Source: a virus. Taken from it: a stretch of 64,000 nt of DNA. Where the stretch lies: UHGV virus genome UHGV-0091736; one strand, written 5' to 3'. Of the stretch, positions 25,855-59,563 are shown piece by piece. The translations under genes and the position numbers were made by a program. Within the stretch, counting starts at the first letter, position 1; each line of letters opens with the position of its first letter. The notes under the pieces were generated by a model. The model did no database searches. It saw nothing but the letters and a program-made list of their open reading frames with translations, and was not told the DNA's origin.

Positions 25855-26100
25855 TTACTCCTGAACCACTGACATACGAATTACTTCAACTGGGGTATCA
25901 CTTTTCATAACACCCAGTACGCCAGTAAGAAGATTAACGGTCGTAATCCAACCCTCTTCTACAGAGATTTTGTTGGATACATTATTAACACGGATGTGGT
26001 ACTGAGGAGTTGCTGTTCCTCTCTGAACTACGAAAGGGTTTCCGGGAATAATTGTAGCCAGTGAAACAGTGTTATCTTTAATCTTTGGGATGATTTTCAT
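25855..26100 (-). CDS. small paralog-family protein
   Basis: 81 aa; IIPGNPFVV...VNLLTGVL. Confidence 0.5.
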   Translation of the reverse strand: MKIIPKIKDNTVSLATIIPGNPFVVQRGTATPQYHIRVNNVSNKISVEEGWITTVNLLTGVLGVMKSDTPVEVIRMSVVQE

Positions 26101-26348
26101 TGCGTATTATCCACCAAAAGTTCTGCTGATACAGGAACAACCTGACAACGACCAAGAGGGGCTGAAACAACCCCATCACCTAGCCGGAGAGTAGGTATCC
26201 GGTTATCTGGGATTTTGATGTTAGGACTTAAGGTAACAATTCCTTTCACATAAAGATCTTCATTGTGTGGGAATTTAAACACAGAACCATTAGCTAGAGA
26301 GCTTAGCTCTACTGCTTCTACTTCCTCTTTCTTATATGTGATTTTCAT
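26097..26348 (-). CDS. small paralog-family protein
   Basis: 83 aa; VELSSLANGSVFKF. Confidence 0.5.
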   Translation of the reverse strand: MKITYKKEEVEAVELSSLANGSVFKFPHNEDLYVKGIVTLSPNIKIPDNRIPTLRLGDGVVSAPLGRCQVVPVSAELLVDNTQ

Positions 26349-26356
26349 ATTGATTC

Positions 26357-26668
26357 CTATTTAAGTTTGAGGCTAATGTTAAGGTGCATACATGCCCTGT
26401 TCTGTACAGCAGCATAACTTCTACCGAGCATGTCAGCCATTCTCTGAATAGACATGAACCCAGCATTACGGATAAGGAACTGGTCTTCTTCTTTAGACCA
26501 CTTAACTCGGATTGAAGCTCTTGATATTCCGAATTTAGTACAAGCTGTGTTAACTGCATTCTCCGTTACATTCATAATCTGAGCAACTTCTTGAACCGAG
26601 TACTCTTTGATTAGTCTCCGAAGATTTTCAATCTGCATCGGAGTCCATATAGTTCTTCGAGCTTTCAT
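26357..26668 (-). CDS. putative DNA-binding protein with two tandem HTH-like repeats
   Basis: 103 aa; WTPMQIENLRRLIKEYSVQEVAQIMNVTENAV and WSKEEDQFLIRNAGFMSIQRMADMLGRSYAAV. Confidence 0.45.
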   Translation of the reverse strand: MKARRTIWTPMQIENLRRLIKEYSVQEVAQIMNVTENAVNTACTKFGISRASIRVKWSKEEDQFLIRNAGFMSIQRMADMLGRSYAAVQNRACMHLNISLKLK

Positions 26669-26983
26669 ACATCCTCCAATTAAACATTTATATAAGACTT
26701 GCTTAGATAAAGATTCAATAAAATAGGGGGAGGGGACGAATCCTCCCTTATCCTATTAGTCAATATTGCATGTAAGATCTAACAATCGGTTGCCTTTGTA
26801 GGAATAAGCGTTATGCTAATCCAGCACTAAACTCCCGCCCCCTTAGTGGGCTGGGTTATTAAAGGGTAACGCCCTTATGGGCTAGTTACATGAATGTTAG
26901 TTTGATAGGAGATCTGAAGTCCTATCTCAAAGGACTCTCGTAAGAATCCTTCACGATAGTCACGCTTTGAGCGTGGTAGCTCC

Positions 26984-27205
26984 TTAGTAAACTAAACCTA
27001 CAGCCTTAGCATCAGGCTGAGGGACCACCTTTGCGCTAGGGCGATAACCATCCACTGAACCATTCCAAAGATTGACACAGGTGATATATCCATCGTTTAT
27101 GATGTCTGTTTTAATCCAGAAGTGTTTATCATGACCAAAAATACTTCCGTTTGGCAGTGTGGACAGCTCAACGGTTTTAAGTGACTGCTTAGAGTCTAGT
27201 TTCAT
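26984..27205 (-). CDS. small paralog-family protein
   Basis: 73 aa; VELSTLPNGSIFGHDKHFWIK...CVNLWNGSV. Confidence 0.5.
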   Translation of the reverse strand: MKLDSKQSLKTVELSTLPNGSIFGHDKHFWIKTDIINDGYITCVNLWNGSVDGYRPSAKVVPQPDAKAVGLVY

Positions 27206-27212
27206 AATAACC

Positions 27213-27518
27213 TCAATCGTCGTAGCATGTATCCCAATACATGTAGTTAACGTACGTTCTCGGTTTGAGTCCGTACATGATAAAGTGAGTCTTCTTAATT
27301 CTTTCCTTCAAGGTATAATAAAGACCATCACTGAAGTTACCAATCTTTACTTGGAAGCGTAAGGAGCGAGCATCCATTCGAAGCATAGAGATTAGCTGTA
27401 CTCTACTGCCCCCAGCCATCTCTTCCAGAAGCTTCTTTGTGTTCCAATAATGAGCTGTCATATTACCACTCCTTACCGGTTGTAATCGTAGAACCACCAC
27501 ACCATAAGGCTGTATCAA
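27213..27518 (-). CDS. hypothetical protein
   Basis: 101 aa ORF. Confidence 0.4.
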   Translation of the reverse strand: MIQPYGVVVLRLQPVRSGNMTAHYWNTKKLLEEMAGGSRVQLISMLRMDARSLRFQVKIGNFSDGLYYTLKERIKKTHFIMYGLKPRTYVNYMYWDTCYDD

Positions 27519-27762
27519 TCACAACATTGTCTGGCGTAGACTTCTCTTCATTGATAGAAGGATTAGCATTAGAACAGGTTGCTCCGTTCCATCGCATATC
27601 AATTTCACCAGAAGGAACCTTCTCACCCTTATGCCAGCGAGATACACAAATACCATCCACTGCTACTGCACACCATCCATCAGGACGGCTCTGTACGCAG
27701 CCTGTAAGGGCCACACAGACAAGGAAGATACAGATTAAGGATATTACACCACCCCAACTCAT
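27463..27762 (-). CDS. small Cys-rich lipoprotein
   Basis: 99 aa; signal peptide MSWGGVISLICIFLVCVALTGC with lipobox LTGC. Confidence 0.5.
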   Translation of the reverse strand: MSWGGVISLICIFLVCVALTGCVQSRPDGWCAVAVDGICVSRWHKGEKVPSGEIDMRWNGATCSNANPSINEEKSTPDNVVIDTALWCGGSTITTGKEW

Positions 27763-27867
27763 AACTACCTCCTATTTGATTTGGCGCACCGTGTAGGACT
27801 CCAACCTACAACCTATTTCTTAGAAGGAAATTGCTCTCTGCAATTGAGCTAACGGCGCTTATTTCAG

Positions 27868-28092
27868 TTAGATCATATCTCGCTTTTTGATACGACCACA
27901 TATTTTACATCGAAGTATATAACGAGTTCCAGTACCTTCCAGACTACCAAAAACTCCATATTTTCTTAAAGGGTTAGATTTGATTATCTCCCATTCGTGG
28001 AGATGGAAGAGATGTTTAAACCACTTGAACACATTAACCTCAAGCACAAGCAGGGAGAGTGATGATTTTATACCGACCTTCAAACTCTCCAA
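27868..28092 (-). CDS. hypothetical protein
   Basis: 74 aa ORF. Confidence 0.4.
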   Translation of the reverse strand: MESLKVGIKSSLSLLVLEVNVFKWFKHLFHLHEWEIIKSNPLRKYGVFGSLEGTGTRYILRCKICGRIKKRDMI

Positions 28093-28339
28093 ACAAACCT
28101 AAGAATGTAGGACTGTAAGTTCCAGTGCAAACAAACTCATCAAACAACTCATTATAGCTAGGCTTAATTTTCCAAGCCCATACATAACCCATCTTGTCAA
28201 TTGCAATGTAACGGGTGTTCAGAGGAACAGTCATCATTACACCATCAACTTCGATCACTTTAGTTATTGGTGCAGCTTGGAAGTTTTTCATCCTACTCTC
28301 CTGACGTTTAGGGTAGCTTGATAAAATTTGACAGGACAA
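28040..28339 (-). CDS. hypothetical protein
   Basis: 99 aa ORF. Confidence 0.4.
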   Translation of the reverse strand: MSCQILSSYPKRQESRMKNFQAAPITKVIEVDGVMMTVPLNTRYIAIDKMGYVWAWKIKPSYNELFDEFVCTGTYSPTFLGLFGEFEGRYKIITLPACA

Positions 28340-28512
28340 CTTCTATCAAATGTAAATCTTGTTTCAGGGTTATTTATACAGATAGCATGTCTGTGCATAA
28401 CCTTCATATATAAAGGAGGTTTTGTATCCCCGTCTATCTCTAGAGAGAATACATCACCATTGCGGAGGCTGCCAAAAGTGTTATCTTTAGGCTCAGAGCG
28501 AACGATAATCAT
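28288..28512 (-). CDS. small paralog-family protein
   Basis: 74 aa; FGSLRNGDVFSLEIDG. Confidence 0.5.
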   Translation of the reverse strand: MIIVRSEPKDNTFGSLRNGDVFSLEIDGDTKPPLYMKVMHRHAICINNPETRFTFDRSCPVKFYQATLNVRRVG

Positions 28513-28685
28513 ACTTTACCTTTAATGAAAATATCATTACCACAGACACAGCATGAACGAACAACAGTAGCGCCACGCTGAACAATACGAACCTCTTCCT
28601 TAATCAGACTAATACGAGCACCGCAGCAAGGGGAGTTGACATAAGAGTAACCAGCTTGCGTATGTTTGATTGTTTGCTTAGACAT
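28509..28685 (-). CDS. small zinc-ribbon protein (below track cutoff)
   Basis: 58 aa MSKQTIKHTQAGYSYVNSPCCGARISL...SCCVCGNDIF; SD GAGGAAG; ATGA overlap with downstream gene. Confidence 0.4.
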   Translation of the reverse strand: MSKQTIKHTQAGYSYVNSPCCGARISLIKEEVRIVQRGATVVRSCCVCGNDIFIKGKV

Positions 28686-28786
28686 TTTAGCTTCCTCTTG
28701 TTAGTTTAGGTAAACCACCCCCCAATCACTGCTACACTCATTCATGTGGAATGCAGATGGGAAAAGCAATTAAAGGTGATTTACCT

Positions 28787-28822
28787 AAAACAACAAAGGC
28801 CACCCGATTGGGCAGCCTTTTA
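28787..28822 (-). terminator. rho-independent terminator
   Basis: minus-strand GGCTGCCCaatcGGGTGGCC followed by TTTGTTGTTTT; near-copy of the 3223-3250 hairpin. Confidence 0.5.
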
Positions 28823-28823
28823 T

Positions 28824-29075
28824 TTATCGATTTACTTCACGAAGTAAGATAACCTGTAAGTATGTATCATCTGCATTTGACAGAAATGCAAAGTACAACT
28901 CTTTTGCTGTATCTATTGAGCAATTAAGACATTTGGATATCTGAAGAAGCTGGATACTTCGTTCAGTGTTATCCAGAATAGCAATGCGAATAATTTCTCG
29001 CATACCGATTACATGGGTATTTTTAACCTTCATAGGTCCAATTGCCTTGCTTGTTACGGATGGCTGACATTGCAT
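28824..29075 (-). CDS. hypothetical protein (start uncertain)
   Basis: 83 aa track ORF; alternative internal start MKVKN at 29033 and an overlapping 46-aa ORF 29023-29163. Confidence 0.4.
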   Translation of the reverse strand: MQCQPSVTSKAIGPMKVKNTHVIGMREIIRIAILDNTERSIQLLQISKCLNCSIDTAKELYFAFLSNADDTYLQVILLREVNR

Positions 29076-29521
29076 GAATCCAGAAGCCTTCCAGTTTCAG
29101 AGCACCGTTAGCTACTGCATCCATACGTTCAGGGCGGTTCATACGTTTGGTTGATACTTTCATACCTATCTCTCTTTGTTAGTGGAGGCATTATTGCCAG
29201 TTGATATAAGGGATAGCCCTAGTCAGGAGACTAATTCTGACCGCGTACTCATTGCCGACCTTCTCTGCCTAAGAGTTCAGGTTCTAGAGCTATCTCTTAT
29301 TCCAACTGGTGAAGACTTCCTACCCCTAGGAAGCCTCCTGAATCCCAAACCAATACGTACCCCTACATATCGGAAAGTCTTTCGAAAATTAACAGGTTTT
29401 AGTCTAACACCGGATGTTCGAGCAAGCTCTCCCTAGCGGTGTGGCATATGCCTGAATTAATAAGTTAATGAGGAACACCCTCACATAGCCCTCTGATAAA
29501 CACAAGGGCTATAAGTCGATG

Positions 29522-29740
29522 TTACTTTTGAGTCAAATACAAATCAGGACGAGGCATAACAGTGGTTGATGGATTGAAGTTACCAACATAACCGGTGCTT
29601 AGATTAGCAGCCCTACGTAGTCCATTAGAGAGGTCATCATCCAGCATCAGCCAGAATTTTTGATCATAAGAGAAAACATCACCACTCTTAACATCTTCCA
29701 CAGTTGCATATTTAGGAGTATCAACTACTTTAATTTCCAT
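29522..29740 (-). CDS. small paralog-family protein
   Basis: 72 aa; VEDVKSGDVFSYDQKFWLML...ANLSTGYV. Confidence 0.5.
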   Translation of the reverse strand: MEIKVVDTPKYATVEDVKSGDVFSYDQKFWLMLDDDLSNGLRRAANLSTGYVGNFNPSTTVMPRPDLYLTQK

Positions 29741-29998
29741 TTACTTACCTTTATTAGTAATAACAACGTCATGAAGAAGAACAACCTTGCTCTTCGAGCT
29801 GAGCTTAATGACTTGTTTGTTTGTTAGACTGAGAACGACACAACCACCATCAGAAGGTTTGGTCTCCTCGATCTGCGATTTAAACAGTTGAACAACCATG
29901 TAGAAATCTGCTCGTGTTTCCCTGATTTGGAATACATCTCCAAGTTCAAGATCACCAACACACAAAGATGGTTCGTTTACCTTCAAATCAATCTTCAT
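29741..29998 (-). CDS. small paralog-family protein
   Basis: 85 aa; VGDLELGDVFQIRETRADFYMVV. Confidence 0.5.
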   Translation of the reverse strand: MKIDLKVNEPSLCVGDLELGDVFQIRETRADFYMVVQLFKSQIEETKPSDGGCVVLSLTNKQVIKLSSKSKVVLLHDVVITNKGK

Positions 29999-30224
29999 CT
30001 TTAACCTCTATGTTAGTTATGTGGAGATCACTGCGTACTTGGCAAACTTCATCACGATCAAAAGGGATAACCTTTCCAGTGACCACATTAACACAATTTA
30101 CACCATTTTCTGCGTATCGTGTGTCGGTTCTAATGTAAAGAGTGTCTTTACGCTCAAACAGAACCCCCGGCTTCATGTTATTTAATCGAATCATCGTACG
30201 ATCAGATTTAATATTAACTTTCAC
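29988..30224 (-). CDS. small paralog-family protein
   Basis: 78 aa; NNMKPGVLFERKDTLYIR...CVNVVTGKV. Confidence 0.5.
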   Translation of the reverse strand: MKVNIKSDRTMIRLNNMKPGVLFERKDTLYIRTDTRYAENGVNCVNVVTGKVIPFDRDEVCQVRSDLHITNIEVKDED

Positions 30225-30226
30225 TG

Positions 30227-30487
30227 TTAATCCACCTTATCAGTAAGTCGAGCATTGTTAATCTTCTTAACAATCACACTATGTCGATCTGCTGAGATCA
30301 CACCGTTTGAGAGGTTCATGTAGTTTCTACAACCATCTGATTTGTTAAATCTACAGGAAGCCATGTAAAAATCATCAGAGTTCACAAGGAATTGGAACAC
30401 ATCACCTGAATCGAGATCCCCAAGAGTTAGCTTCTTTGGTGGATGGTTCATGTCAATTATCACTGTTAATCTCCTGCTGCTTAGCAA
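30227..30487 (-). CDS. small paralog-family protein
   Basis: 86 aa; LGDLDSGDVFQFLVNSDDFYMA...MNLSNGVI. Confidence 0.5.
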   Translation of the reverse strand: MLSSRRLTVIIDMNHPPKKLTLGDLDSGDVFQFLVNSDDFYMASCRFNKSDGCRNYMNLSNGVISADRHSVIVKKINNARLTDKVD

Positions 30488-30749
30488 TAGCTACTCGCAA
30501 GTCTTCATTAGCACGAGCAAGGCGCAACACTTCATGATTGAGATTCTGAAGACGCTTGTTTCTGTCCTCTACTTGCATAATAAGATCGTTGAGTGTTACT
30601 TTAACTTTCTCATTATACATCTCATCCACTCGGACTAGGGATTTATACATTCTCTCCCAGCTTGCTGCTTTGTTTCTGAGAACAATAAATCCTATAACGC
30701 TGATAGTTAAACAGCTTACAAAAAGGAATTTATATACTTCTAAAGTCAT
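30453..30749 (-). CDS. membrane-anchored coiled-coil protein (i-spanin-like architecture)
   Basis: 98 aa; N-terminal TM FLFVSCLTISVIGFIVL then heptad-rich helical region. Confidence 0.45.
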   Translation of the reverse strand: MTLEVYKFLFVSCLTISVIGFIVLRNKAASWERMYKSLVRVDEMYNEKVKVTLNDLIMQVEDRNKRLQNLNHEVLRLARANEDLRVAIAKQQEINSDN

Positions 30750-30949
30750 ATCATTTTACCCTTTATCAGAGATTAAAAGTAATATTATTTAAGTAAGTTA
30801 TATTTAGTAAACTTATTTTCTAAGAAATTTTCAAAGGGTCTATATACAGAGCATTACCCATAGTCCCAGAATACTACCATCTTTTTCAATAAATTTACTA
30901 AGTGGTTGGTTTATAAAGGAATTTAGTTTGTCAAATCTGGCACTAGTGA

Positions 30950-31339
30950 TTATTCCCTAGAGCTATTATCGAACACTAAATCACCACAATACATAGGATT
31001 GGCATACCATTTTGGCACCCCTTCGCTCTTACTCTGAAAGTAAGTCCCACTGTACAGCGGAACATAATTCTTCTTAAGGGCACGTTTAGCTAGCCTCTCG
31101 CTTTCTCCAATGGCTTGCTTAGTCATCGGATTTTTATCACGAATCAGCTTTACATAACGTTTATAAGGTTTCTCCTGTTTTAATAGTACCGGAATCCACT
31201 CAAACTGGTTCTTTTGTCTTATCACCTGTTCAGCGGTCAGTTTTCGTTGAGCCATTCTATTTATCACGGTATCCGCAACTAAAGCCTTACATGCGGTTGG
31301 CTGATTCCCTGCCTCATAATAAATAGTCAATGTCAACAT
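30950..31339 (-). CDS. SleB-like cell wall hydrolase
   Basis: 129 aa; YYEAGNQPTACKALVADTVINR resembles the cell-wall hydrolase (Hydrolase_2) motif. Confidence 0.55.
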   Translation of the reverse strand: MLTLTIYYEAGNQPTACKALVADTVINRMAQRKLTAEQVIRQKNQFEWIPVLLKQEKPYKRYVKLIRDKNPMTKQAIGESERLAKRALKKNYVPLYSGTYFQSKSEGVPKWYANPMYCGDLVFDNSSRE

Positions 31340-31388
31340 TAGCTGTGCCGTTGTTATCAGAACTTGATACCTCCTGTTTTACGGGCAT

Positions 31389-31413
31389 AAAAAAGCCCCA
31401 GCCGTAGCCGGGG
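31389..31413 (-). terminator. rho-independent terminator
   Basis: minus-strand CCCCGGCtacGGCTGGGG followed by CTTTTTTAT. Confidence 0.6.
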
Positions 31414-31475
31414 TAAACCTGAAAGCAACACATGACCGTTGCTATAAATACACTCGTAAATGCACTTATAGCAAC

Positions 31476-31498
31476 GCAAAAAGCCGCTCAAAGGCGGC
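31476..31498 (-). terminator. rho-independent terminator
   Basis: minus-strand GCCGCctttgaGCGGC followed by TTTTTG. Confidence 0.5.
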
Positions 31499-31579
31499 TA
31501 TGCGGAAGCTTCAAATGGGAAGAGGGCACGACGCGACAGAAAGAGCGTCATAGTACTAAAAGAGGGGGATATATTCCTA

Positions 31580-32023
31580 CTACTTAACTCTTGCCTCTTT
31601 GATAGGGTCAATGTATTTCCCAACACCCCACTTGTGTTTACTATCTGCGTAGAAAACATCAGGTGCACACTGGCTTGTCTTAGGGAAAGCCTGCGGGTCT
31701 TTCGTGCTACCCTTAAACTTCTGTTTACCACGGGTGCGACCATTACAGAAGATTTCTAACTTCTTCTCTTCTTCTGTTTTAGCGCCCCCGCTCTGTAACA
31801 AAGAACGTTTATGATCAGCTAACAACAACGCATCAGCACGATGGACACGATGGCCTACACGTTTTGCCACACTAGAAGGGATATGAGATTCAGCTTCAGC
31901 CTTTGCAGCACGACGTTTTAAACTGCGCTTGCTGACGTGATTGGTTGCCTTTGGCTTCTCTTTCTCCAGTTCAGAGATAGAAAAACAACGCCCGCCCTTC
32001 ATGCTGATTTTAGATTTAGCCAC
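31580..32023 (-). CDS. basic hypothetical protein
   Basis: 147 aa Lys/Arg-rich ORF; two terminators downstream. Confidence 0.5.
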   Translation of the reverse strand: MAKSKISMKGGRCFSISELEKEKPKATNHVSKRSLKRRAAKAEAESHIPSSVAKRVGHRVHRADALLLADHKRSLLQSGGAKTEEEKKLEIFCNGRTRGKQKFKGSTKDPQAFPKTSQCAPDVFYADSKHKWGVGKYIDPIKEARVK

Positions 32024-32092
32024 AATCTTATTCCTTTCAGTGATAAGTTATATCGGGCAAGCCCATCAAGGCGATAGGCTTGAACAAATAAC

Positions 32093-32302
32093 TTAATCGA
32101 GTAAACTAAATGACTTCCAACTGCGTAGCAGGATTGTACCGTCATCCATAGTCACACACAGCTTTAGTAGTTTCTTATTAGCACTGCTTACTGTTGTAAT
32201 TCGTCCGATTGTGCATTTACCCTTATTACTATAAAGATACACTACACGACGACCTAACAAACGAGAGGGAGCTTTCTTAAACTCTGAAAGATTAGTGATC
32301 AT
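32093..32302 (-). CDS. hypothetical protein
   Basis: 69 aa ORF. Confidence 0.4.
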   Translation of the reverse strand: MITNLSEFKKAPSRLLGRRVVYLYSNKGKCTIGRITTVSSANKKLLKLCVTMDDGTILLRSWKSFSLLD

Positions 32303-32520
32303 TATCCGTAAAACTCCAAATGGTTAGCACGTTTATCTTTAAAGTAGGAGCATTCGATACCCCTTGCTTTTATCTCTTCTTTGCGCTGGTTAGTATGTAC
32401 AGTATCCCAATGCTCACTATTACGTCGGCGCTGTAGTATCTTACTACATTTGCGATGGTTTCCGGTGCTGCGATGTTTCTCACAAATAGGACACTTACCA
32501 AAATTACTACTGAATATCAT
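32302..32520 (-). CDS. small zinc-finger protein
   Basis: 72 aa; GKCPICEKH...NHRKC. Confidence 0.4.
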   Translation of the reverse strand: MIFSSNFGKCPICEKHRSTGNHRKCSKILQRRRNSEHWDTVHTNQRKEEIKARGIECSYFKDKRANHLEFYG

Positions 32521-32744
32521 TTTCTCAATCCTAGCTTACGTAATACACGGCCCAAAATTGTTTCTTGCGTGATGATATAACTAATCGCTTCACGTTCTAA
32601 CGTCTCAATTTTCATTGGCGACGGATACCATTCACCGGTAAGAATACACTTACATTCAACGCCATACTTTTTAGACAGGCGGTAATGTTGACCGTTACGA
32701 AGGTTTCTGTAGATCGTGGTATGTGTAGTTAACATAATCATCAC
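32517..32744 (-). CDS. hypothetical protein
   Basis: 75 aa ORF. Confidence 0.4.
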   Translation of the reverse strand: MMIMLTTHTTIYRNLRNGQHYRLSKKYGVECKCILTGEWYPSPMKIETLEREAISYIITQETILGRVLRKLGLRK

Positions 32745-32846
32745 CTTTGATTAGATTCTTTGATGAGCACACTGAATCAATGCACTGATAAAAGAAAAGG
32801 CGCTACCCGTTAAGATAGCGCCTTATATTTATTCAAATTGTCTTAC

Positions 32847-33755: not shown

Positions 33756-34570
33756 CTTTCAATTGTAAGGGCGCTATTGCCCCGCTCTCTATGAGCTTGT
33801 TTAAGTCACTATTAACTTAACTCTAACCACTCACTTTTTAAGTAGTTACAGGTAAGCGGGGCGGTCTTATCAGGAGTTAACCTTGCCGCCCCCTTATCCG
33901 TGATGTTTCATCTGGTATCTTTAATTAGTCGCTATAAATAAAGCCGACCTGATAGCGATGATCAATCATCACAATAAGGCAGTGCGTCCGACTCTAATTA
34001 GTTACGTTTATTGTAACCGTCGGCAATATCGTCTACTTTGCTTTCGCTCTCGCCTATCCTTTTGTATTAACTCTCAATCGCTAGTCATCGCCCACTACGG
34101 GATACTATTGCGAAAGAGTCATTAACCGTCTAATATTCCGACGTTTTATATCTTTCAGCGAGTTTACTACATAAACCGACTATGTACTTTCATCATAAGA
34201 CGAATCTCAAGCCGTTCACATCGTAAACGTTCACACTAAACCTTATTGTTAAATAGCAATTTGCCACTTTTTAACCGCTCCCCGCCGCCCTCAATTGGGC
34301 GTTAATTTGTCGGACTTGTCTACCCTGATTAACTTCTTTCACTGTAGCGCCTTGTTAGCGATGACCGCCGCTACCCTTAACCGTGGGCGATTAGCTTAAG
34401 CCTTTGCGTGCACTCAGTGAATCCGTTTATCAGTGGTGACGTTTCCAGTAAGGGATTGCAAGACTGTTTCCTCTGATAGTTTAGAGAGCCTTACATCGTT
34501 TTATCTGGTACGCTTTCCGATGGTTATTATCATCAAGCATATTCAACCGATATAGAAGAACGTTTAAATT

Positions 34571-35056
34571 GTTAAAGAGCGGTAAATCTATCAGCGTGTT
34601 TACTCACGCTATGCAACTGTTAGCCGTTGTCTCGCTTTTCACTTAAGCGGTGATTTGCTTAGTGAGTGCTCATTATGAATCATGTTGTTTTAGCTGTCAA
34701 CCACTTTTTTAATCTTTTTCGTCGTTCCCATTATCGGGAGGATATACCAATCAGCTTTATTTGATTGGAGATTAAGCGGTGATGCTTAACTTATGATTCA
34801 TATTGTTAAAGAGCGGTTACTACATTCACAGCTTAACACATCGTGTTAGCTTGTCAACTCTTTCTATCGTCTTCTTTTTCTCTCTCTCCCTCTGTCTCGC
34901 GTGAATCTATGCGAAAGGGCAAGACGATCAGTTTTTAAAGAGCGGGGATTTTTTAAGTCATCGCTGACTGAGTGCTCATTATGAATCAGGCTTTTTCCGG
35001 TGTCAATACTCTTTTTAAGAATATTTTCACTTTTTAGCCTGATTTTTAAGGAGCGG
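34571..35056. repeat. dispersed direct repeats inside the 1.8-kb non-coding region
   Basis: TTAAAGAGCGG at 34571, 34805, 34935, 35046 (variant TTAAGGAGCGG); GAGTGCTCATTATGAATCA at 34664 and 34970; TTAAGCGGTGAT at about 34643 and 34773. Confidence 0.6.
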
Positions 35057-35495
35057 TTGAAGTCTCTCTCTTCACGGGGTATTGCGTAGTTCCCAACGTT
35101 CTCTGCCACCGCGCTATAGGTAGTGGCTTAGTATCCGACAATCAGACCTTCTTCACTCGGTGAAGCCCGGCCCCTCAATTTACTGTTAGTGAGGCGGTTA
35201 CAGTGTACCTGCTACCGATTCCGTGGTGGCGTCTTACTGCTTGTTGCTTACTGCTTACTACGGGATTCATATTACTATACAGGAAAACCCTGTCAATACC
35301 CTTTTTTCAAATTATTTTTCATCTCACTGTTTTCTAAAGGAATTTATTTTATTGTCAGTAGGACACCGGAAGGAATCAGGAGGTAAAAGAGCGGGAGCGC
35401 GTGATACATCACAGGAAACGGCTTGTAAAGCAGTAATAAGCGTCCTAAAACGCATCACAACGAGCTAAAAGGGAGTAAGGCATACAATCACCTTA

Positions 35496-35526
35496 GAAAA
35501 TAGAAAAGCCTCTTAATGAGGCTTAC
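35496..35526 (-). terminator. rho-independent terminator
   Basis: minus-strand AAGCCTCattaaGAGGCTT followed by TTCTATTTTCT. Confidence 0.55.
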
Positions 35527-35600
35527 AGGAAGGATTTAAAGCATCAGATAGATTATGACCATAGGCATGACCACGGCACAATACAGGAGAAAGATTAAGC

Positions 35601-36053
35601 CTATGGATTTACACATTGACCGTTACCGGATTCTACTTCGTTCATGGACTCATCAAAGAGTGTCAACGATGAGCGCATCAGGTGATCGACCGTGATTTGT
35701 TTACCAGTGGTTTCATTTACTAATAGAATAGTTTTACTATCTGATTGCACATGTTCGAAATCATTTACATGTAAAATAATAACTTTAGGTGACTTTTTAC
35801 CAGTGTCATAATTCTCAATCAAATAGGTGCACTGTAAACCGTCAACCGTAGCAGGGGAAAACGTTGCAGCCCTTACGCTACCCAAAGATGATAGCAGGAC
35901 ACCTAACAGGAGAACAACCAGAAAGAAGCCTACAACCATTTTAACTAAGAATTTAATAAACCACATAGCAATCAACCTTTTAGTTAAAGAACGTAAGAGT
36001 AAAGCATATCGGCGACGAATAGCGCCACTGTAGCAACGAATAAACACCGCCAA
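35601..36053 (-). CDS. early membrane-anchored protein
   Basis: 150 aa; hydrophobic segment FLVKMVVGFFLVVLLLGVLLSSL; start may be internal Met. Confidence 0.5.
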   Translation of the reverse strand: MAVFIRCYSGAIRRRYALLLRSLTKRLIAMWFIKFLVKMVVGFFLVVLLLGVLLSSLGSVRAATFSPATVDGLQCTYLIENYDTGKKSPKVIILHVNDFEHVQSDSKTILLVNETTGKQITVDHLMRSSLTLFDESMNEVESGNGQCVNP

Positions 36054-36059
36054 AAATAA

Positions 36060-36323
36060 TCATTCTTCATCATTGCCTTTACCTTCAAAGAGTGATACTC
36101 TAAGCAATTTAATTTCTTCCAGTGACAGAAGAATCCCACGTTGCGCCAGATAATGACCAGCTTTAACATCATCCATAATTAGAGCGACGGCAGGAAATTC
36201 TACCGCATTAATATTATCGCCACCAACAAACAAGATCAGACACTTGTCAGAATTGTCAGTATATGAGAAATCAATATCCCCATAGTTATGAGTAGGGATA
36301 GTGTAACTATGTTCTTTAGCCAT
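36060..36323 (-). CDS. hypothetical early protein
   Basis: 87 aa ORF. Confidence 0.5.
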   Translation of the reverse strand: MAKEHSYTIPTHNYGDIDFSYTDNSDKCLILFVGGDNINAVEFPAVALIMDDVKAGHYLAQRGILLSLEEIKLLRVSLFEGKGNDEE

Positions 36324-36333
36324 GTATTAATCC

Positions 36334-37206
36334 TTACTTATTAGCCTTAATGCAGTTGGCTAGATTAACGTGAACAGTATAAACAGCATTATCAGCGTTA
36401 TTATAAACGGTAGTGGCGATCATCGACTCCTTAACCGGACCATAACTCACTAGATTGGTTACAGCTTTAACGTCTTCATAACGTTGTACAGTACCAAATG
36501 TCACCATATCCGCATCATTATCAGTGCGCTTAAGCACCAAATCATTGTTAGGCTGATTATCTAGTGTTTTAGACTGAAAGAGAACGCCTTCATTTGTTAC
36601 GTTGCTAAACTTCATTTTTAAGACAATAGTATTGCCGTCACTATCCGCACCGTTGCAAATCATCCAACCTTTATTGATGGAACTAGAGAAGACACTAGCC
36701 GCATCAGTTGCAGGAGCAGGACTAGCAACAGCCTTATCAGAAAGAGATGTGACCAGTGCACTAACACCGATCGCTGCAACCAGTGCATAACTTGCCAGAT
36801 TAACAGACTTCATAATCTTACTTGCAACAGTAGGCTTGATTGGCTGTTTCTTGTTTTTCTTGTTCCATGCTTCAACCATGACAGACAAGCGGGATAATTC
36901 AGCTTTCACATCACGGCATGACTCAGGCCAATCTTTCTGATTCCAGCTATCTAAATTTGCTTGAATGTAGCAATTAATAGCGTCCTGCATATCGGTAAAA
37001 CCGTTCTCTTTGAACGTGCTTTCATCTTCACACTGTAAAGCGTTCGCAGTAGAGTTAATGATCAAGCAAGCCAGCATTACAGAGTTTTTGAATCCTTTAC
37101 GTGCACTTTCGTTTTCCATCCACGCATCAGGACTACCAACGGTTAAGCCTAAAGATGAAAGGTTTTCGTTTGCTTTGTTCAAGTGGTTAATTGCTACTTT
37201 AGACAT
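36334..37206 (-). CDS. early protein with central transmembrane helix
   Basis: 290 aa; TM VNLASYALVAAIGVSALVTSL; first gene after strong sigma70-like promoter; SD AAGGAA. Confidence 0.55.
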   Translation of the reverse strand: MSKVAINHLNKANENLSSLGLTVGSPDAWMENESARKGFKNSVMLACLIINSTANALQCEDESTFKENGFTDMQDAINCYIQANLDSWNQKDWPESCRDVKAELSRLSVMVEAWNKKNKKQPIKPTVASKIMKSVNLASYALVAAIGVSALVTSLSDKAVASPAPATDAASVFSSSINKGWMICNGADSDGNTIVLKMKFSNVTNEGVLFQSKTLDNQPNNDLVLKRTDNDADMVTFGTVQRYEDVKAVTNLVSYGPVKESMIATTVYNNADNAVYTVHVNLANCIKANK

Positions 37207-37250
37207 TTGATATTCCTTATGGTTGATGAAAACTACAAACTACAATCGCA

Positions 37251-37278
37251 ACTATATAATAAAGGAAAAGGCTGTCAA
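37251..37278 (-). promoter_or_regulatory. sigma70-type early promoter (leftward)
   Basis: minus-strand TTGACA, 16-nt spacer, TATAGT; about 45 nt upstream of ATG at 37206. Confidence 0.6.
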
Positions 37279-37421
37279 CCATTTATTTTCTAACTTTCCT
37301 ATAACTTACTGAAAACTAAAGGAATTTAATTTACTAAACTTTCCATACTCAGAGAATCAGCTTACTGGATATTGTTACTTTATAACACTAATCCTACGGG
37401 TAACAGACCAACAGACCAGGG

Positions 37422-37852: not shown

Positions 37853-38000
37853 TAGAACGTGGGAGGAGGTGTAAAGGCATTGCCAATAACCCTTTTTTAA
37901 ATGAGGACTCCCCCTTTTTAGGAATTCGTCGCAGAGCGCCTAGCCCCACTCGGTCAAATCAGAATTTTAAACTCTTATATATAAGGTTGAAAGAGAACTT

Positions 38001-38375: not shown

Positions 38376-38395
38376 TTTACTCAGAGGACAAAAGT

Positions 38396-52441: not shown

Positions 52442-52933
52442 ATGGATAATGTCGCATTGCCGCCGATACAACGGAGCTTAAGCCCAGAAGGGATGGAATT
52501 CATCATGAAGCATGAAGGCATGAGAACTCGTGCTTACCAAGATTCCGCAGGTATCTGGACAATATGTGTTGGGGCTACGCGCGATATGAATGGGTATCCA
52601 GTTAGACAAGGATTAACGTATTCTATAGAGGATTGTCTAGCTCTGCTAGATAGAGACACACAAGACTCTGTTCGTGCTACTCAAAAGAACATAAAGGTTC
52701 CTTTACTAATGCATGAGTTTGATGCACTCACTTCTTTCAACTTCAATGTTGGCAGTGGGGCTTTGAGCACATCTAAGTTAAGGAAGGTTATCAATGGAGA
52801 AGTGAAAGGAGATGTTTATTCAGAATTTCTTCGTTGGGATAAAATCACGGTTAAAGGGGAGAAACGGAGAAGTCAGGGTCTTCATAACAGAAGGGTTGCA
52901 GAAGCCGATCTTTATACCGAAGCTAAATATTAA
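52442..52933 (+). CDS. endolysin, phage lysozyme (GH24-like)
   Basis: 163 aa; EGMRTRAYQDSAGIWTICVGAT and HEFDALTSFNFNVGSGA match the phage lysozyme family. Confidence 0.8.
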   Translation: MDNVALPPIQRSLSPEGMEFIMKHEGMRTRAYQDSAGIWTICVGATRDMNGYPVRQGLTYSIEDCLALLDRDTQDSVRATQKNIKVPLLMHEFDALTSFNFNVGSGALSTSKLRKVINGEVKGDVYSEFLRWDKITVKGEKRRSQGLHNRRVAEADLYTEAKY

Positions 52934-56766: not shown

Positions 56767-57735
56767 ATGGGTGCTGGTGGCTTTCGTAAGAATACCGGAA
56801 GAAACAACACAACACAACCTTATAGTGTGGGTTTTCTAAACACCTCTGAGAGTGTAGAAACTAATAACGTTGCGATATATGATGAACTTCAGAATATTAG
56901 TACTGCAACTAATCAAATGTTCCAAGCTATAGATGAAATTCATGAGGAGATTGATGTTCGTATTAAAGCTCTTCATGCTATGAATTTACAATTCGACGAA
57001 CTAGAGAATCGTGTTACGACAGAGATTGAGACTGCCATTGCAGATATCATAACACAAATGGGTAATCTATCCACTGATGATATTTGGGATAACTCTGTTC
57101 AGCCTCCTGTTAAGTTAGATTCAACTATGTCTGGTATTAAGACTTCTATAGAAGGCAATACAGCATCTATTCAAACTGTCGAAGGCATTGTCAATGATCA
57201 AGGACAAGAGATTGCCCTTATTCAGTCTGATTTAACTAACGGGACAGGTAGTGCTTCTCAATATATGAAACTCACTGAATATGAAGCTACTTGGGGAGTA
57301 AATTCCACAGTAAATGGAAAGACAGCAGGGGTAAAACTGACAAATAATGGTTCTATAAGCCAATTCCAAGTCACAGCTGATAAGTTTGTGGTATCTGATG
57401 GCACATCAGGAAGTACTCCCTTCAAGGTTGAGAATGGAAGGGCTGTTATGGAGTTTGCTGATATTACTAATGTCAATATTACAACAGCTCAAATAGCAAC
57501 AGCTAGGATTGAATGGGCACAGATTGATAATGTCAGTATAACAAATGCACAAATCACAAGTCTCTCCGCTGATAAGATAACGGCTGGTTCTATGTCAGGA
57601 ACTAACTGGCGTCTTACAGTTGGTGGTGACTTTGTTTTAGGTGGTACAGGTGGGGCGCAGTTGTGGATGAATGGTAACAGAATAGACTTCTATGATGGAA
57701 GTGGTGCTCTGAGAATTAGAATAGGGAGTTGGTAA
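56767..57735 (+). CDS. virion structural protein (putative)
   Basis: 322 aa; SD AGGAGG. Confidence 0.5.
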   Translation: MGAGGFRKNTGRNNTTQPYSVGFLNTSESVETNNVAIYDELQNISTATNQMFQAIDEIHEEIDVRIKALHAMNLQFDELENRVTTEIETAIADIITQMGNLSTDDIWDNSVQPPVKLDSTMSGIKTSIEGNTASIQTVEGIVNDQGQEIALIQSDLTNGTGSASQYMKLTEYEATWGVNSTVNGKTAGVKLTNNGSISQFQVTADKFVVSDGTSGSTPFKVENGRAVMEFADITNVNITTAQIATARIEWAQIDNVSITNAQITSLSADKITAGSMSGTNWRLTVGGDFVLGGTGGAQLWMNGNRIDFYDGSGALRIRIGSW

Positions 57736-57736
57736 T

Positions 57737-58768
57737 ATGGCATATGGAATATGGTGTCAACCTGTAGGGCCGGGGCCAGCAACCCCCGCTCCCTTGTTTA
57801 TTGATAGCGGAAGTACTTTCCCTCAGTTCAAGAACAGCATAAGAGGAAGTTTTAACTTTAATGGGGCTGGAAGATCCTTCCCTATTAATGGGTGGGATGG
57901 TAGTGGTCAGATAGTTATTGTTCCTACCGGTTCTTTATGTTGGCAGTGGGAAGTCCCTCCTAACTTAGTTCCTGATGTTTATTGTGTGAATAACATCTAC
58001 GTAGAAAACAACTCCTCTTTTAGAGTTACTCTGAATCAGAACCCTGGCAGTAACCCATTATTCGACTGTGGGTTCAACGTATACCAAATATGGCCTAGAG
58101 CAGATAGGAATTATGGAATTACCTTTTCCAATACAGCAGACTACTTCTCAATATCTGATAGTGGGGTCGTCGGTCAATGTATTTGGGCTTGGCAGGGAAC
58201 TATAGGTAACTCCCTTCAAATACCAAATATTGGTGGTTTTAATATGGCTAATGCTGTTGTGTTTGCCAACTGGTCTGATGGAGGGATAGGACTATCTTAC
58301 ACATCCGATGACAGAATTATTCGCGTCTATCAGAATAGACCTTATGTCAATGGAAACACTAATGAAGGAGGGTCTGTCTTTGCGAGGGTTGCCGTATTCT
58401 GTAATGGAGCTGGTGTTCCTGAGCATAATGGAGGTTTGAATATTTACTCTCCGGGTACCACTCAATGCGTCTTCTCTACTAACAGAACACCTTTCACTGT
58501 GGATACTTTTATAGGCTCAGGAGGTGGTGACACTGGAATGTCATACCCTATGATACCTCTTACTTCTGGAATAGGTGCAATAAAAGGGCGAGGCAGTGGA
58601 TGGAGATATCAGCAAATGAGATCTCACACAATGAGTGGTTCTACGATAGGAACTGGCTATGGAAGGTATTTGTTTCAGTGGGATCAAAATTATGACCTAG
58701 GAGCTGATACTGTAGTTAATTTATCAGTTCCTGTAATAAATGCAGCTAAGGTTTTTGCTGGACTATAA
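57737..58768 (+). CDS. virion structural protein (putative)
   Basis: 343 aa; translationally coupled to upstream gene. Confidence 0.5.
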   Translation: MAYGIWCQPVGPGPATPAPLFIDSGSTFPQFKNSIRGSFNFNGAGRSFPINGWDGSGQIVIVPTGSLCWQWEVPPNLVPDVYCVNNIYVENNSSFRVTLNQNPGSNPLFDCGFNVYQIWPRADRNYGITFSNTADYFSISDSGVVGQCIWAWQGTIGNSLQIPNIGGFNMANAVVFANWSDGGIGLSYTSDDRIIRVYQNRPYVNGNTNEGGSVFARVAVFCNGAGVPEHNGGLNIYSPGTTQCVFSTNRTPFTVDTFIGSGGGDTGMSYPMIPLTSGIGAIKGRGSGWRYQQMRSHTMSGSTIGTGYGRYLFQWDQNYDLGADTVVNLSVPVINAAKVFAGL

Positions 58769-58780
58769 CAAGGAGATATT

Positions 58781-59563
58781 ATGGCAATTAAGATGGGTAT
58801 TGAAGAACTAGACCCAATGGTTCAACAGGCTTCAAAGAAGTATGGGATTCCTGCTGCTTTGATTCATGCTGTAATCCAAAGAGAGTCTAGTGGTCGTCCT
58901 ACAGTAGCCTCTGGAACTGGTCCTGTAGGTTTAATGCAAATCAGTAAAGGGTTGGCTAAAGACTATGGTTACAAATTAGAAGACAGACTTGACCCAGCAA
59001 AGAATATTGATATGGGTGCTCGTTATATTCGAGATAACTTAAAGGCTTTTAATGGTGATGTTAAGAAAGCAATGGTTGGTTACTCAGAAGGTATCGGCGG
59101 AGCTAAGCAAATGTTCGCTGGTAAAAAGGGATTTACACCTCAAGCCCTTGACTCAATGAACAACAAACACTTTCTCCCTTTCTATGGTGATGCAGCTTCT
59201 CAGATTGCTAACCCTGTTGGAGCTTTGCAAGCTGTTCAACCAGTCAATCAGTTTAGTCCTGACTTGTTAGATAGAGAGAAGGCCGCACAAGCTCCAACTC
59301 AGGCAGAGATTGCTGCTTCTAAGACCGGTGCTTTAGGTGGTAATCCAGTAGAGTTTTACTCTGATGAAGTACAGGAAGGTGAAAACCAGAAACCTCAACA
59401 GAACTTTGGTAATGCAGTATTAGGGGTAGCTGCTATGCTTGCTGGTAAACCTCCTACTTCTCAAACAGTTCAGAGGGCGAGTGCACCACATGCAGCAGGT
59501 TCTCAGTACAGTCTACAAACACAAGCAGTGCTCAGACGTTTGGCTAGCATTGGTGTAAAGTAA
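58781..59563 (+). CDS. lytic transglycosylase (SLT domain) internal virion protein
   Basis: 260 aa; ALIHAVIQRESSGRPTVASGTGPVGLMQIS. Confidence 0.75.
   Translation: MAIKMGIEELDPMVQQASKKYGIPAALIHAVIQRESSGRPTVASGTGPVGLMQISKGLAKDYGYKLEDRLDPAKNIDMGARYIRDNLKAFNGDVKKAMVGYSEGIGGAKQMFAGKKGFTPQALDSMNNKHFLPFYGDAASQIANPVGALQAVQPVNQFSPDLLDREKAAQAPTQAEIAASKTGALGGNPVEFYSDEVQEGENQKPQQNFGNAVLGVAAMLAGKPPTSQTVQRASAPHAAGSQYSLQTQAVLRRLASIGVK

What the first reader, a model, noticed from the sequence alone, without database searches (positions are those of the whole stretch)
27463..31339. Cell-wall-active and envelope proteins in the early region, far from the endolysin
A SleB-like cell wall hydrolase (30950-31339), a membrane-anchored coiled-coil protein with i-spanin-like architecture (30453-30749) and a Cys-rich lipoprotein (27463-27762) lie on the early strand, about 22 kb from the GH24 endolysin. 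They may serve superinfection exclusion, envelope remodelling, or form a second lysis-related module.
Basis: inference. Interest (0 to 1): 0.4.

Follow-up and report, generated by a model that had tools for sequence, protein, structure and literature searches.

The report
LptD-blocking lipoprotein in a Kuravirus
The three early genes are real but do not form one module: the lipoprotein belongs to a family shown to block the LptD outer-membrane channel against superinfection, and its receptor-binding partner sits among the tail genes, which points to LptD as the unidentified receptor of these phages.

Summary
The window is a phiEco32/SU10-like Kuravirus. All three ORFs exist at the stated coordinates, on the early (minus) strand.

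1. 27463-27762 is a lipoprotein (lipobox LTGC). It belongs to Pfam PF24052 and is homologous to Rtp45, the superinfection-exclusion lipoprotein solved bound to LptDE (PDB 9RPS).
3. Kuraviruses therefore carry both halves of the LptD-type RBP/exclusion pair, about 30 kb apart and in different temporal classes. Their terminal receptor is unidentified in the papers I could read.
5. 30453-30749 has a transmembrane helix plus coiled coil but is not a spanin: it has no o-spanin partner, and the real spanins lie elsewhere in phiEco32. Its function is unknown, and the "DNA helicase" label is spurious.

The parts
27463..27762 (-). Early lipoprotein, Rtp45-family (PF24052) superinfection-exclusion protein. 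Signal peptide 1-21, lipobox LTGC, lipidated Cys22. Val at +2 implies outer-membrane sorting. Conserved Cys31/Cys39 pair and C-terminal KEW motif.
   Evidence: PDB 9rps_D E=1.2e-13. Mature-only identity to Rtp45 is 48% over 42 aa. The reciprocal tblastn of Rtp45 finds kuraviruses.
27782..27858 (-). tRNA-Arg(TCT), immediately upstream (in transcription order) of the lipoprotein gene.
   Evidence: The same arrangement occurs in phiEco32, ShigP1 and ECBP2.
30453..30749 (-). 98-aa membrane-anchored coiled-coil protein (phi32_116 homologue). Function unknown; it is not a spanin and not a helicase.
   Evidence: Found only in Gordonclarkvirinae. N-flank has no positive charge and C-flank has four.
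30950..31339 (-). SleB/CwlJ-fold lytic-transglycosylase-like enzyme (phi32_117 homologue). Single domain, no signal peptide or transmembrane helix, invariant Glu9.
31396..31413 (-). Terminator-like GC hairpin plus T-run just upstream of the hydrolase start. A second one lies at 31482-31499.
   Evidence: Phage 7-11 has an annotated terminator directly upstream of its SleB-like gp111.
57737..58768 (+). Late gene (SU10 gp19 / phi32_21): DUF6453 protein with the fold of LptD-binding receptor-binding proteins of small siphophages. Inferred cognate partner of the early lipoprotein.
56767..57735 (+). Tail needle (SU10 gp18), homologous to the C-terminal tip of J-like central fibres (PF09327). Its stop codon lies 1 nt before the gp19 start.
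52442..52933 (+). GH24 endolysin (late), preceded by the annotated holin homologue at 52187-52411.
58781..59563 (+). Virion ejection protein with an SLT transglycosylase domain (SU10 gp20). This is the entry-stage peptidoglycan enzyme, so that role is already filled.
34672..37278 (-). Cluster of strong sigma-70-like promoters (TTGACA with 16-17 nt spacing and near-consensus -10 boxes) that would drive early leftward transcription towards the three genes.
   Evidence: Consistent with the SU10 description.

Best explanation
The three genes are independent early functions, not one module.

(a) The lipoprotein. It is exported, lipidated at Cys22 and sorted to the inner face of the outer membrane. 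By homology to Rtp45, it binds the periplasmic side of the LptDE lipopolysaccharide translocon and pushes its extracellular loops into a shape that phage receptor-binding proteins (RBPs) cannot engage. An infected cell, and later its debris, would then stop adsorbing LptD-targeting phages. Its cognate RBP is the late DUF6453 protein (57737-58768), encoded right after the tail needle and inferred to sit at the needle tip. The phage is therefore predicted to use LptD as its terminal receptor after the long fibres bind O-antigen.

(b) The SleB-like protein. It is a cytoplasmically made, probably active lytic transglycosylase that can reach the wall only when a holin opens the membrane. It is best read as an auxiliary or ancestral endolysin kept alongside the later-acquired GH24+holin cassette.

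(c) The 98-aa protein. It is an inner-membrane-anchored coiled coil, most likely facing the cytoplasm. Its role is unknown; a host-takeover or membrane function is a guess.

Shown here: family membership, folds, motifs and gene arrangement. Inferred: LptD binding, timing, enzyme activity and membrane topology.
For: Lipoprotein:
- PF24052 at 117 bits against a cutoff of 27; Rtp45 itself scores E=1e-37 in the same family.
- The phmmer hit to 9rps_D has E=1.2e-13.
- Mature-only identity is 48% over 42 aa and includes the Cys pair that forms the Rtp45 Cys30-Cys38 disulfide and the strand (residues 30-35) that pairs with LptD. This is at least as close to Rtp45 as the SE protein of Oekolampad is (35%).
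- The Rtp45 mechanism comes from PMC12685063.

Partner RBP:
- DUF6453 E=3e-23.
- The only PDB sequence hit is the Oekolampad RBP.
- hhalign to Rtp44 gives 97.8% probability over 301 columns.
- Needle gp18 aligns to the C-terminal tip of T1 J and Rtp43 and shares PF09327 with Rtp43.

Co-occurrence of the two families:
- They were adjacent in all 7 E. coli siphophages that appeared in both sampled hit lists, and about 10 kb apart in 2 Klebsiella weberviruses.
- FhuA-dependent T1 has neither family.
- LptD dependence was shown genetically for seven phages with this RBP locus.
- The Kuravirus terminal receptor is unidentified in the literature I could search.
- T5 Llp is a precedent for an early-expressed exclusion lipoprotein (cited).

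Hydrolase: for fold and the invariant Glu. It is 100% identical at the amino-acid level in phiEco32, SU10 and ShigP1, and 86% identical in another genus where neighbouring genes fall to 30-65%. Its distant homologues are the annotated endolysins of 7-11, Cronobacter and Aeromonas C3 podophages. The SU10 paper reports that 7-11 and GAP52 lack the GH24+holin pair.

98-aa protein.
Against: - gp19 was not among the 34 proteins found by LC-MS/MS of SU10 preparations. It is not mentioned in the SU10 cryo-EM paper or its held supplements. Its presence in the virion is therefore unproven.
- Lipoprotein and gp19 sequence variants do not co-vary across kuraviruses: KBNP1711 is 100%/62%, ES17 is 75%/98%.
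- Resistant mutants reported for ES17 lost O-antigen, not LptD. Short tail fibres with T4-like tips are the published candidates for surface binding.
- gp19 is only 22-24% identical to proven LptD binders, so its specificity could differ.
- The hydrolase has no export signal, lies in an early region among small host-takeover-type genes, and has no adjacent holin. Lysis is already covered by GH24.
- The 98-aa protein's topology rests only on the positive-inside rule.
Confidence: 0.6

Rival explanations
1. The three genes form a second lysis cassette: the SleB-like endolysin, the 98-aa protein as holin or i-spanin, and the lipoprotein as o-spanin.
For: The architectures resemble such a cassette superficially: a muralytic fold, a transmembrane helix plus coiled coil, and a small lipoprotein. 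Lysis genes are already scattered in this phage group.
Against: The lipoprotein is a full-length PF24052/Rtp45 homologue, not an o-spanin. About 2.7 kb, roughly ten ORFs and a tRNA separate it from the 98-aa gene. No lipobox ORF overlaps or adjoins the 98-aa gene. phiEco32 already has overlapping spanins. The 98-aa protein matches no holin or spanin family. It is absent next to the SleB-like gene of 7-11. Early expression of a holin would be self-defeating.
Confidence: 0.05
2. The lipoprotein blocks LptD (or another outer-membrane protein) only against competing phages. The Kuravirus itself does not use LptD. gp19 is then a non-virion protein or has a different specificity.
For: gp19 was not detected in virion proteomics. 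The two genes do not co-vary. Only O-antigen dependence has been reported.
Against: gp19 lies between the needle gene and the ejection-protein genes, with the needle gene's stop codon 1 nt before its start. It keeps the whole RBP fold, including the conserved N-terminal MA(Y/Q)GIY motif. The needle is homologous to the J tip where such RBPs dock. Both genes are core to all ~100 Gordonclarkvirinae records. LptD is essential, so knockout screens would miss it.
Confidence: 0.25
3. The SleB-like protein has a non-lytic early role in the cytoplasm. It could be regulatory, like T7 lysozyme acting on RNA polymerase, or it could act on peptidoglycan precursors or recycling products.
For: It has no export signal. 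It occupies an early-region position in kuraviruses and sits among small non-lysis genes in related metagenomic phages. Conservation is extreme although lysis is already covered by GH24. A terminator-like hairpin lies just upstream, in both Kuravirus and 7-11. The T7 gp3.5 precedent is from my own knowledge.
Against: The catalytic Glu and the other family motifs are retained in every homologue. 7-11-like phages reportedly have no other endolysin. There is no evidence for any binding partner.
Confidence: 0.2
4. The SleB-like protein is a virion-borne entry enzyme.
For: Many podophages carry a wall-degrading enzyme in the particle (general knowledge).
Against: That role is filled by the SLT-domain ejection protein gp20. 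The SleB-like protein was not found in SU10 proteomes. It is encoded on the early strand.
Confidence: 0.03

Closest known systems
Rtp45 of siphophage Rtp (PDB 9RPS; Pfam PF24052), the LptDE-binding superinfection-exclusion lipoprotein
   Same: Same Pfam family. Both have a signal peptide and lipobox, the RPDGWC...C...VP.GE.D.R core with the disulfide Cys pair, and a C-terminal KEW motif. A DUF6453 RBP is encoded in the same genome.
   Different: The host phage is a podovirus. The gene sits in the early region about 30 kb from the RBP gene rather than next to it. It carries a 20-30 aa variable insertion with two extra Cys. LptD binding is untested.
RBP of Oekolampad / Rtp44 (DUF6453; PDB 9RPT)
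   Different: Only 22-24% identity. The partner is a P22-style needle homologous only to the J tip. It has not been seen in published virion proteomes.
T5 Llp and T1/phi80 Cor (FhuA-directed exclusion lipoproteins)
   Same: Small outer-membrane lipoproteins that inactivate the phage's own receptor. Llp is expressed early.
   Different: No sequence relationship: T1 Cor matches only the generic lipid-attachment-site model and scores 12 bits against a lipoprotein HMM built here. The receptor and mechanism differ.
SleB/CwlJ spore cortex lytic transglycosylases (PF07486; PDB 4FET, 4F55)
   Same: Catalytic-domain fold, the Y-x-E-[AS] Glu, and the NR and QF motifs. It is single-domain like CwlJ.
   Different: Phage-encoded in a Gram-negative host. 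It has no N-terminal peptidoglycan-binding domain and no secretion signal. Only 16-17% identity.
gp111 'endolysin' of Salmonella phage 7-11 and relatives (C3 podophages)
   Same: Homologous (32-36% identity), same size, no signal peptide, on the minus-strand non-structural region, with a terminator just upstream.
   Different: In 7-11 it is reportedly the only endolysin. Here a GH24+holin pair is also present.
Lambda Rz-type i-spanins
   Same: An N-terminal transmembrane helix followed by a coiled coil, and small size.
   Different: No o-spanin partner, the predicted opposite topology, no family match, and a real spanin pair elsewhere in the reference genome.

Membership tests
PF24052 / Rtp45-type exclusion lipoprotein (27463-27762) | Sec signal peptide with lipobox and invariant Cys | tested here: met
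   LTGC at 19-22; hydrophobic core with KD 2.71; conserved in phiEco32 and ECBP2.
PF24052 / Rtp45-type exclusion lipoprotein (27463-27762) | Profile match above the curated threshold over the whole model | tested here: met
   117.1 bits against 27, model positions 1-80 of 80; Rtp45 scores 128 bits.
PF24052 / Rtp45-type exclusion lipoprotein (27463-27762) | Conserved core with the Cys30-Cys38 disulfide pair and the LptD-pairing strand | tested here: met
   Cys31/Cys39 align with Rtp45 Cys30/Cys38; 48% identity over the core.
PF24052 / Rtp45-type exclusion lipoprotein (27463-27762) | A DUF6453 RBP encoded in the same genome | tested here: met
   57737-58768.
PF24052 / Rtp45-type exclusion lipoprotein (27463-27762) | Gene adjacent to the RBP gene (typical of E. 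coli siphophages; not strictly defining) | tested here: not met
   About 30 kb apart, on opposite strands. Klebsiella weberviruses also split the pair, by about 10 kb.
PF24052 / Rtp45-type exclusion lipoprotein (27463-27762) | Binds the periplasmic face of LptDE and blocks RBP binding | not testable with these tools
   Needs co-expression and pull-down, cryo-EM, or plating assays.
DUF6453 LptD-binding RBP (57737-58768) | Family profile and fold | tested here: met
DUF6453 LptD-binding RBP (57737-58768) | Encoded next to the central-fibre tip protein it docks on | tested here: met
   It starts 1 nt after the stop codon of needle gp18, which is homologous to the J C-terminus.
DUF6453 LptD-binding RBP (57737-58768) | Present in the virion | tested here: inconclusive
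   Absent from the SU10 LC-MS/MS list, and only major gel bands were analysed in the cryo-EM study.
DUF6453 LptD-binding RBP (57737-58768) | Binds LptD | not testable with these tools
   Requires lptD mutants or biochemistry.
SleB/CwlJ lytic transglycosylase, PF07486 (30950-31339) | Profile match above threshold, and fold | tested here: met
SleB/CwlJ lytic transglycosylase, PF07486 (30950-31339) | Catalytic glutamate retained | tested here: met
   Glu9 is invariant in 24 homologues and aligns with the first Glu of YGESRGE in SleB. Which Glu it is comes from my recollection (B. anthracis E151).
SleB/CwlJ lytic transglycosylase, PF07486 (30950-31339) | Own route to the cell wall (signal peptide or SAR domain) | tested here: not met
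   Maximum 19-residue hydropathy is 0.29, and only 8 residues precede the catalytic Glu. Some distant homologues do carry signal peptides.
SleB/CwlJ lytic transglycosylase, PF07486 (30950-31339) | Muralytic activity | not testable with these tools
   Zymogram or dye-release assay needed.
i-spanin (30453-30749) | N-terminal transmembrane helix with a periplasmic coiled-coil domain | tested here: inconclusive
   The helix is present. Flank charges (0 positive N-side, 4 positive C-side) predict a cytoplasmic C-terminus. This is a rule of thumb only.
i-spanin (30453-30749) | Cognate o-spanin lipoprotein gene embedded, overlapping or adjacent | tested here: not met
   No lipobox ORF in any minus-strand frame of 30200-31000, apart from a spurious FVSC inside the transmembrane helix itself, which is not conserved in ECBP2.
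i-spanin (30453-30749) | It is the genome's spanin | tested here: not met
   phiEco32 spanins are at 35417-35768 and 35272-35533. That region lies outside this window (tblastn negative).
DNA helicase (the PHROG 12154 / RefSeq label for 30453-30749) | NTP-binding and helicase motifs, helicase domain | tested here: not met
   98 aa, transmembrane helix plus coiled coil, no P-loop in the sequence, and no helicase family hit.

The most novel reading that the evidence does not exclude
Kuraviruses (phiEco32/SU10 group) use the essential LPS translocon LptD as their so-far unidentified terminal receptor. A low-copy DUF6453 protein at the tip of the tail needle docks into LptD. This would be the trigger for needle release and nozzle formation, and possibly the route through the outer membrane. 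An early-expressed Rtp45-like lipoprotein then closes LptD to further phage. The siphophage RBP/exclusion module would thus have been transplanted into a podovirus and split between late and early transcription units.
Probability: 0.5. Interest if true: 0.7.

Novelty: new variant of a known kind. Interest (0 to 1): 0.6.

Why it matters
Kuraviruses are common, broad-host-range, restriction-resistant coliphages that are being considered for therapy. A 2023 review says of SU10 that its receptors "are not yet identified", and the 2025 BASEL paper only infers a surface or LPS-core target by analogy.

Finding both halves of the experimentally characterised LptD RBP/exclusion system in these genomes turns that open question into a simple experiment, using existing lptD loop mutants or plasmid-borne lipoprotein. 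It also offers a candidate trigger for the tail rearrangement seen by cryo-EM.

LptD is essential and conserved, so phages that use it are attractive for therapy and for 'phage steering'.

The work also corrects two annotations: the 'DNA helicase' label, and the truncated hydrolase ORF in ECBP2. It flags a strongly conserved third peptidoglycan enzyme whose role in a phage that already has an endolysin and a virion transglycosylase is unexplained.

Tried and rejected
- tblastn of a Kuravirus o-spanin against the window was negative; that region is not in the window.
- The phiEco32 gp36 promoter motif TAATGTATA is not enriched (19 matches against 21.8 expected), and no copy lies upstream of the three genes. 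There is therefore no evidence for middle or late promoters there.
- The test for co-variation of lipoprotein and gp19 variants across kuraviruses was negative.
- The 7-11 genes next to its SleB-like gene were checked for a holin, a spanin or a homologue of the 98-aa protein. None was found.
- Metagenomic contexts of distant hydrolase homologues show small early-type or nucleotide-metabolism genes and no lysis cassette.
- For the 98-aa protein: PDB sequence search gave only chance coiled-coil hits; PADLOC gave none; the database-wide homologue search returned only Kuravirus-like proteins; Pfam gave only borderline coiled-coil DUFs.
- A SAR-endolysin reading of the hydrolase was rejected because only 8 residues precede the catalytic Glu.
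- A lipoprotein reading of the 98-aa protein (FVSC) was rejected because the h-region is too short and the Cys is not conserved.
- Savalia 2008, Pavlova 2012 and the two SleB structure papers could not be read.

Full report
**What the window is.** Megablast of 27000-32000 finds about 100 Escherichia and Shigella podophages of the genus Kuravirus (phiEco32, SU10 and relatives) at about 91-93% identity. Genes at 1-37 kb run on the minus strand (replication and early functions). Genes at 39-64 kb run on the plus strand (virion and lysis). Strong sigma-70-like promoters lie at 34.7-37.3 kb on the minus strand. The SU10 paper assigns CDS 69-125, which include the homologues of all three genes, to the early class. 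The 7-11 paper summarises the same for phiEco32. Timing is therefore inferred by homology, not measured here.

**The observation.** All three ORFs are at the exact coordinates given.
- The hydrolase passes Pfam PF07486.
- The lipoprotein hits PF24052 at E=3e-34. It has a textbook lipobox (LTGC, Cys22), a good Shine-Dalgarno sequence and seven cysteines.
- The 98-aa protein has a single N-terminal hydrophobic helix and a charged, heptad-patterned remainder.
- The GH24 endolysin is 52442-52933 (PF00959), 21-25 kb away.

**The lipoprotein.** A sequence search of the PDB gave one real hit: chain D of 9RPS, 'Phage lipoprotein', E=1.2e-13. 9RPS is the cryo-EM structure of Shigella LptDE(M) with Rtp45, the superinfection-exclusion lipoprotein of siphophage Rtp.

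According to that paper, Rtp45 binds the periplasmic side of LptD between LptE and LptM. It pairs a beta-strand (residues 30-35) with LptD and sends a hairpin up the lumen. This displaces extracellular loop 4 by up to 20 A, so the phage RBP cannot bind.

The similarity here is not just the signal peptide. With mature sequences only, identity is 48% over 42 residues. That stretch covers the strand and both cysteines of the Cys30-Cys38 disulfide, which are Cys31 and Cys39 here. The C-terminal KEW motif is shared too. Rtp45 itself belongs to PF24052, and the reverse tblastn from Rtp45 recovers kuraviruses at 40-51% identity. The exclusion protein of Oekolampad, which the authors treat as equivalent, is only 35% identical to Rtp45. 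T1 Cor, which acts on FhuA, is not in this family.

**The missing partner.** In siphophages the exclusion gene sits beside the RBP gene, so I searched the window with Rtp44, the RBP of Rtp. It hit the late ORF 57737-58768.
- This ORF is a DUF6453 protein at 83 bits against a cutoff of 25; Rtp44 scores E=1e-113 in the same family.
- Its only PDB sequence hit is the Oekolampad RBP in 9RPT (E=3e-10).
- A profile of Kuravirus homologues aligns end to end with Rtp44 (hhalign 97.8%, E=1e-12, 301 columns).

The ORF is SU10_019 / phi32_21, annotated as hypothetical. It begins 1 nt after the stop codon of the tail-needle gene gp18. The needle itself aligns with the last ~250 residues of the J-like central fibres of T1 (E=2e-8) and Rtp (E=3e-6), and it carries the same PF09327 domain as Rtp43. 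The C-terminal end of J is where such RBPs are thought to attach. The Kuravirus therefore has a needle equivalent to the J tip, then the RBP, with the exclusion gene moved to the early transcription unit about 30 kb away.

**How specific the pair is for LptD.**
- Seven BASEL siphophages with this RBP locus were shown genetically to need LptD. The locus type matched the receptor 'without exception' in that study.
- Both families appear in similar numbers of phage records (384 and 307, or 305 with Rtp45 as query) and in the same taxa.
- In the seven E. coli siphophages that appeared in both sampled lists, the two genes are adjacent. In two Klebsiella weberviruses they are about 10 kb apart, so a split arrangement is not unique to kuraviruses.
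- FhuA-dependent T1 has neither family.
- I could not run a full census.

**What argues against LptD as the Kuravirus receptor.**
- gp19 is not among the 34 proteins detected in SU10 preparations. It is never mentioned in the SU10 structure paper, where only major bands were identified.
- Lipoprotein and gp19 variants assort independently across kuraviruses.
- Reported resistance and host-range data implicate only O-antigen.

None of this is decisive. LptD is essential and is missed by knockout screens. A tip RBP would be present in very few copies. The exclusion protein binds the conserved periplasmic face, so it has no need to track RBP variation. The searchable literature does not link kuraviruses with LptD, and it states that the SU10 receptors are unidentified.

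**The SleB-like protein.**
- Twenty-eight relatives were found in an exhaustive search. In the alignment of 24, Glu9 and Arg28 are invariant.
- The profile matches the SleB catalytic domains across their whole length (E=6e-18). Glu9 falls on the first Glu of YGESRGE.
- A catalytic glutamate is essential in SleB. That it is this particular one is my recollection.
- The protein has no signal peptide, SAR domain or transmembrane helix.
- It is the most conserved ORF of the neighbourhood: 100% amino-acid identity in phiEco32, SU10 and ShigP1, at least 99% in 63 records, and 86% in the genus Suseptimavirus, where neighbouring genes fall to 30-65%.
- Outside Gordonclarkvirinae, its homologues (32-36% identity) are the annotated endolysins of other prolate podophages: 7-11 gp111, and Cronobacter, Proteus and Aeromonas phages. 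The SU10 paper says 7-11 and GAP52 lack the GH24 lysozyme and holin.
- The entry-stage wall enzyme is the SLT-domain ejection protein gp20.

The most economical reading is a holin-dependent endolysin inherited from the common ancestor of these phages and retained after a GH24+holin cassette was inserted among the tail genes. There are caveats. No holin lies beside it in any relative examined. It sits behind a terminator-like hairpin in both Kuravirus and 7-11. Its redundancy with GH24 makes the extreme conservation hard to explain. A non-lytic early role cannot be excluded.

**The 98-aa protein.** Homologues occur only in Gordonclarkvirinae. The transmembrane helix and the juxtamembrane LRNK(A/S)ASW motif are the conserved part; the coiled coil diverges. 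It is not an i-spanin for four reasons.
- No o-spanin ORF is embedded in or next to it.
- The flanking charges predict that the coiled coil is cytoplasmic.
- It matches no spanin or holin family.
- The curated spanin census places the phiEco32 i-spanin and o-spanin at 35.3-35.8 kb, which RefSeq annotates as the Rz-like spanin phi32_39. That is outside this window.

The 'DNA helicase' label in RefSeq comes from PHROG 12154 and is not credible for a 98-residue membrane coiled coil. I can offer only a weak guess at function: an inner-membrane early protein involved in host takeover or exclusion.

**Verdict.** The three genes are real and envelope-related but functionally separate.
- The lipoprotein is a new member of a now-characterised exclusion family, in a new genomic arrangement and a new phage morphotype. 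Together with gp19 it predicts LptD as the Kuravirus terminal receptor.
- The hydrolase is a bona fide SleB-fold enzyme of uncertain role.
- The spanin idea is rejected.

Noticed in passing
window 25855-26100, 26097-26348, 26984-27205, 28288-28512, 29522-29740, 29741-29998, 29988-30224, 30227-30487 (all minus strand): A multi-copy family of small (72-86 aa) paralogous early proteins with a shared N-terminal pattern (MK(I/V)...L..G(D/S)(V/I)F...). They cross-hit PHROGs 6570, 7832, 16423 and 9955 and have no Pfam match. The window has an extra copy (30227-30487) relative to phiEco32. Similar proteins flank the SleB-like gene in phage 7-11 (gp110, gp112).
   Followed up: partly
window 30453-30749; phi32_116 and many RefSeq records: The 98-aa membrane coiled-coil protein is widely annotated 'DNA helicase', apparently propagated from the PHROG 12154 label. 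Nothing in the sequence supports this.
   Followed up: yes
L010 (ECBP2) 4494-4799: ECBP2_0114 is annotated from an internal Met (101 aa), which would remove the catalytic Glu. The frame is open further upstream (…LITTAQLLLTLTIYYEAGNQ…), so the true gene probably starts at a non-ATG codon and is full length.
   Followed up: partly
window 31580-32023 (-): A 147-aa lysine-rich protein (GTG start, PHROG 11641, no Pfam or PADLOC hit) lies directly upstream of the hydrolase. It is 97% conserved even in the genus Suseptimavirus, more than any neighbour. Two terminator-like hairpins separate it from the hydrolase.
   Followed up: no
window 31340-31579, compared with L001 5494-6427: phiEco32 carries two extra genes here in the early region. 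One is phi32_119, 265 aa, annotated 'agglutinating adhesin', 'tail protein' or 'recognition of host receptor'. Both are absent from this window and from SU10.
   Followed up: no
window 52187-52411 (+): The homologue of the annotated 'putative holin' has a basic N-terminus, one hydrophobic segment and a VNA|V site. It looks as much like a cleavable Sec signal or type II anchor with a 45-aa periplasmic tail as like a classical holin.
   Followed up: no
window 26500-38500, minus strand: Terminator-like hairpins are about twice as frequent as in shuffled sequence (17 against 8.0 +/- 2.3). Strong examples are at 32824-32797 and 28820-28795, which would partition the early region into several units.
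   Followed up: no
window 3610 (-), 40785 (+), 47721 (+), 63306 (+): Exact matches to the phiEco32 gp36 (phage sigma factor) promoter consensus TAATGTATA. Their positions fit middle and late promoters, and none is near the three genes.
   Followed up: partly
window 27463-27762 compared with L001, L002, L003: The lipoprotein gene is mosaic. Residues 1-58 are nearly identical across kuraviruses, while residues ~59-90, which carry the two extra Cys, are replaced by divergent variants (73-93% overall amino-acid identity). gp19 also falls into discrete variant classes of 98, 70, 60 and 47% identity.
   Followed up: partly
phages mEp021 (52712-52897) and mEp515 (50987-51610): Lambdoid temperate phages also carry a PF24052-like lipoprotein or a DUF6453-like protein. 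This suggests the LptD-type module also circulates in temperate phages.
   Followed up: no
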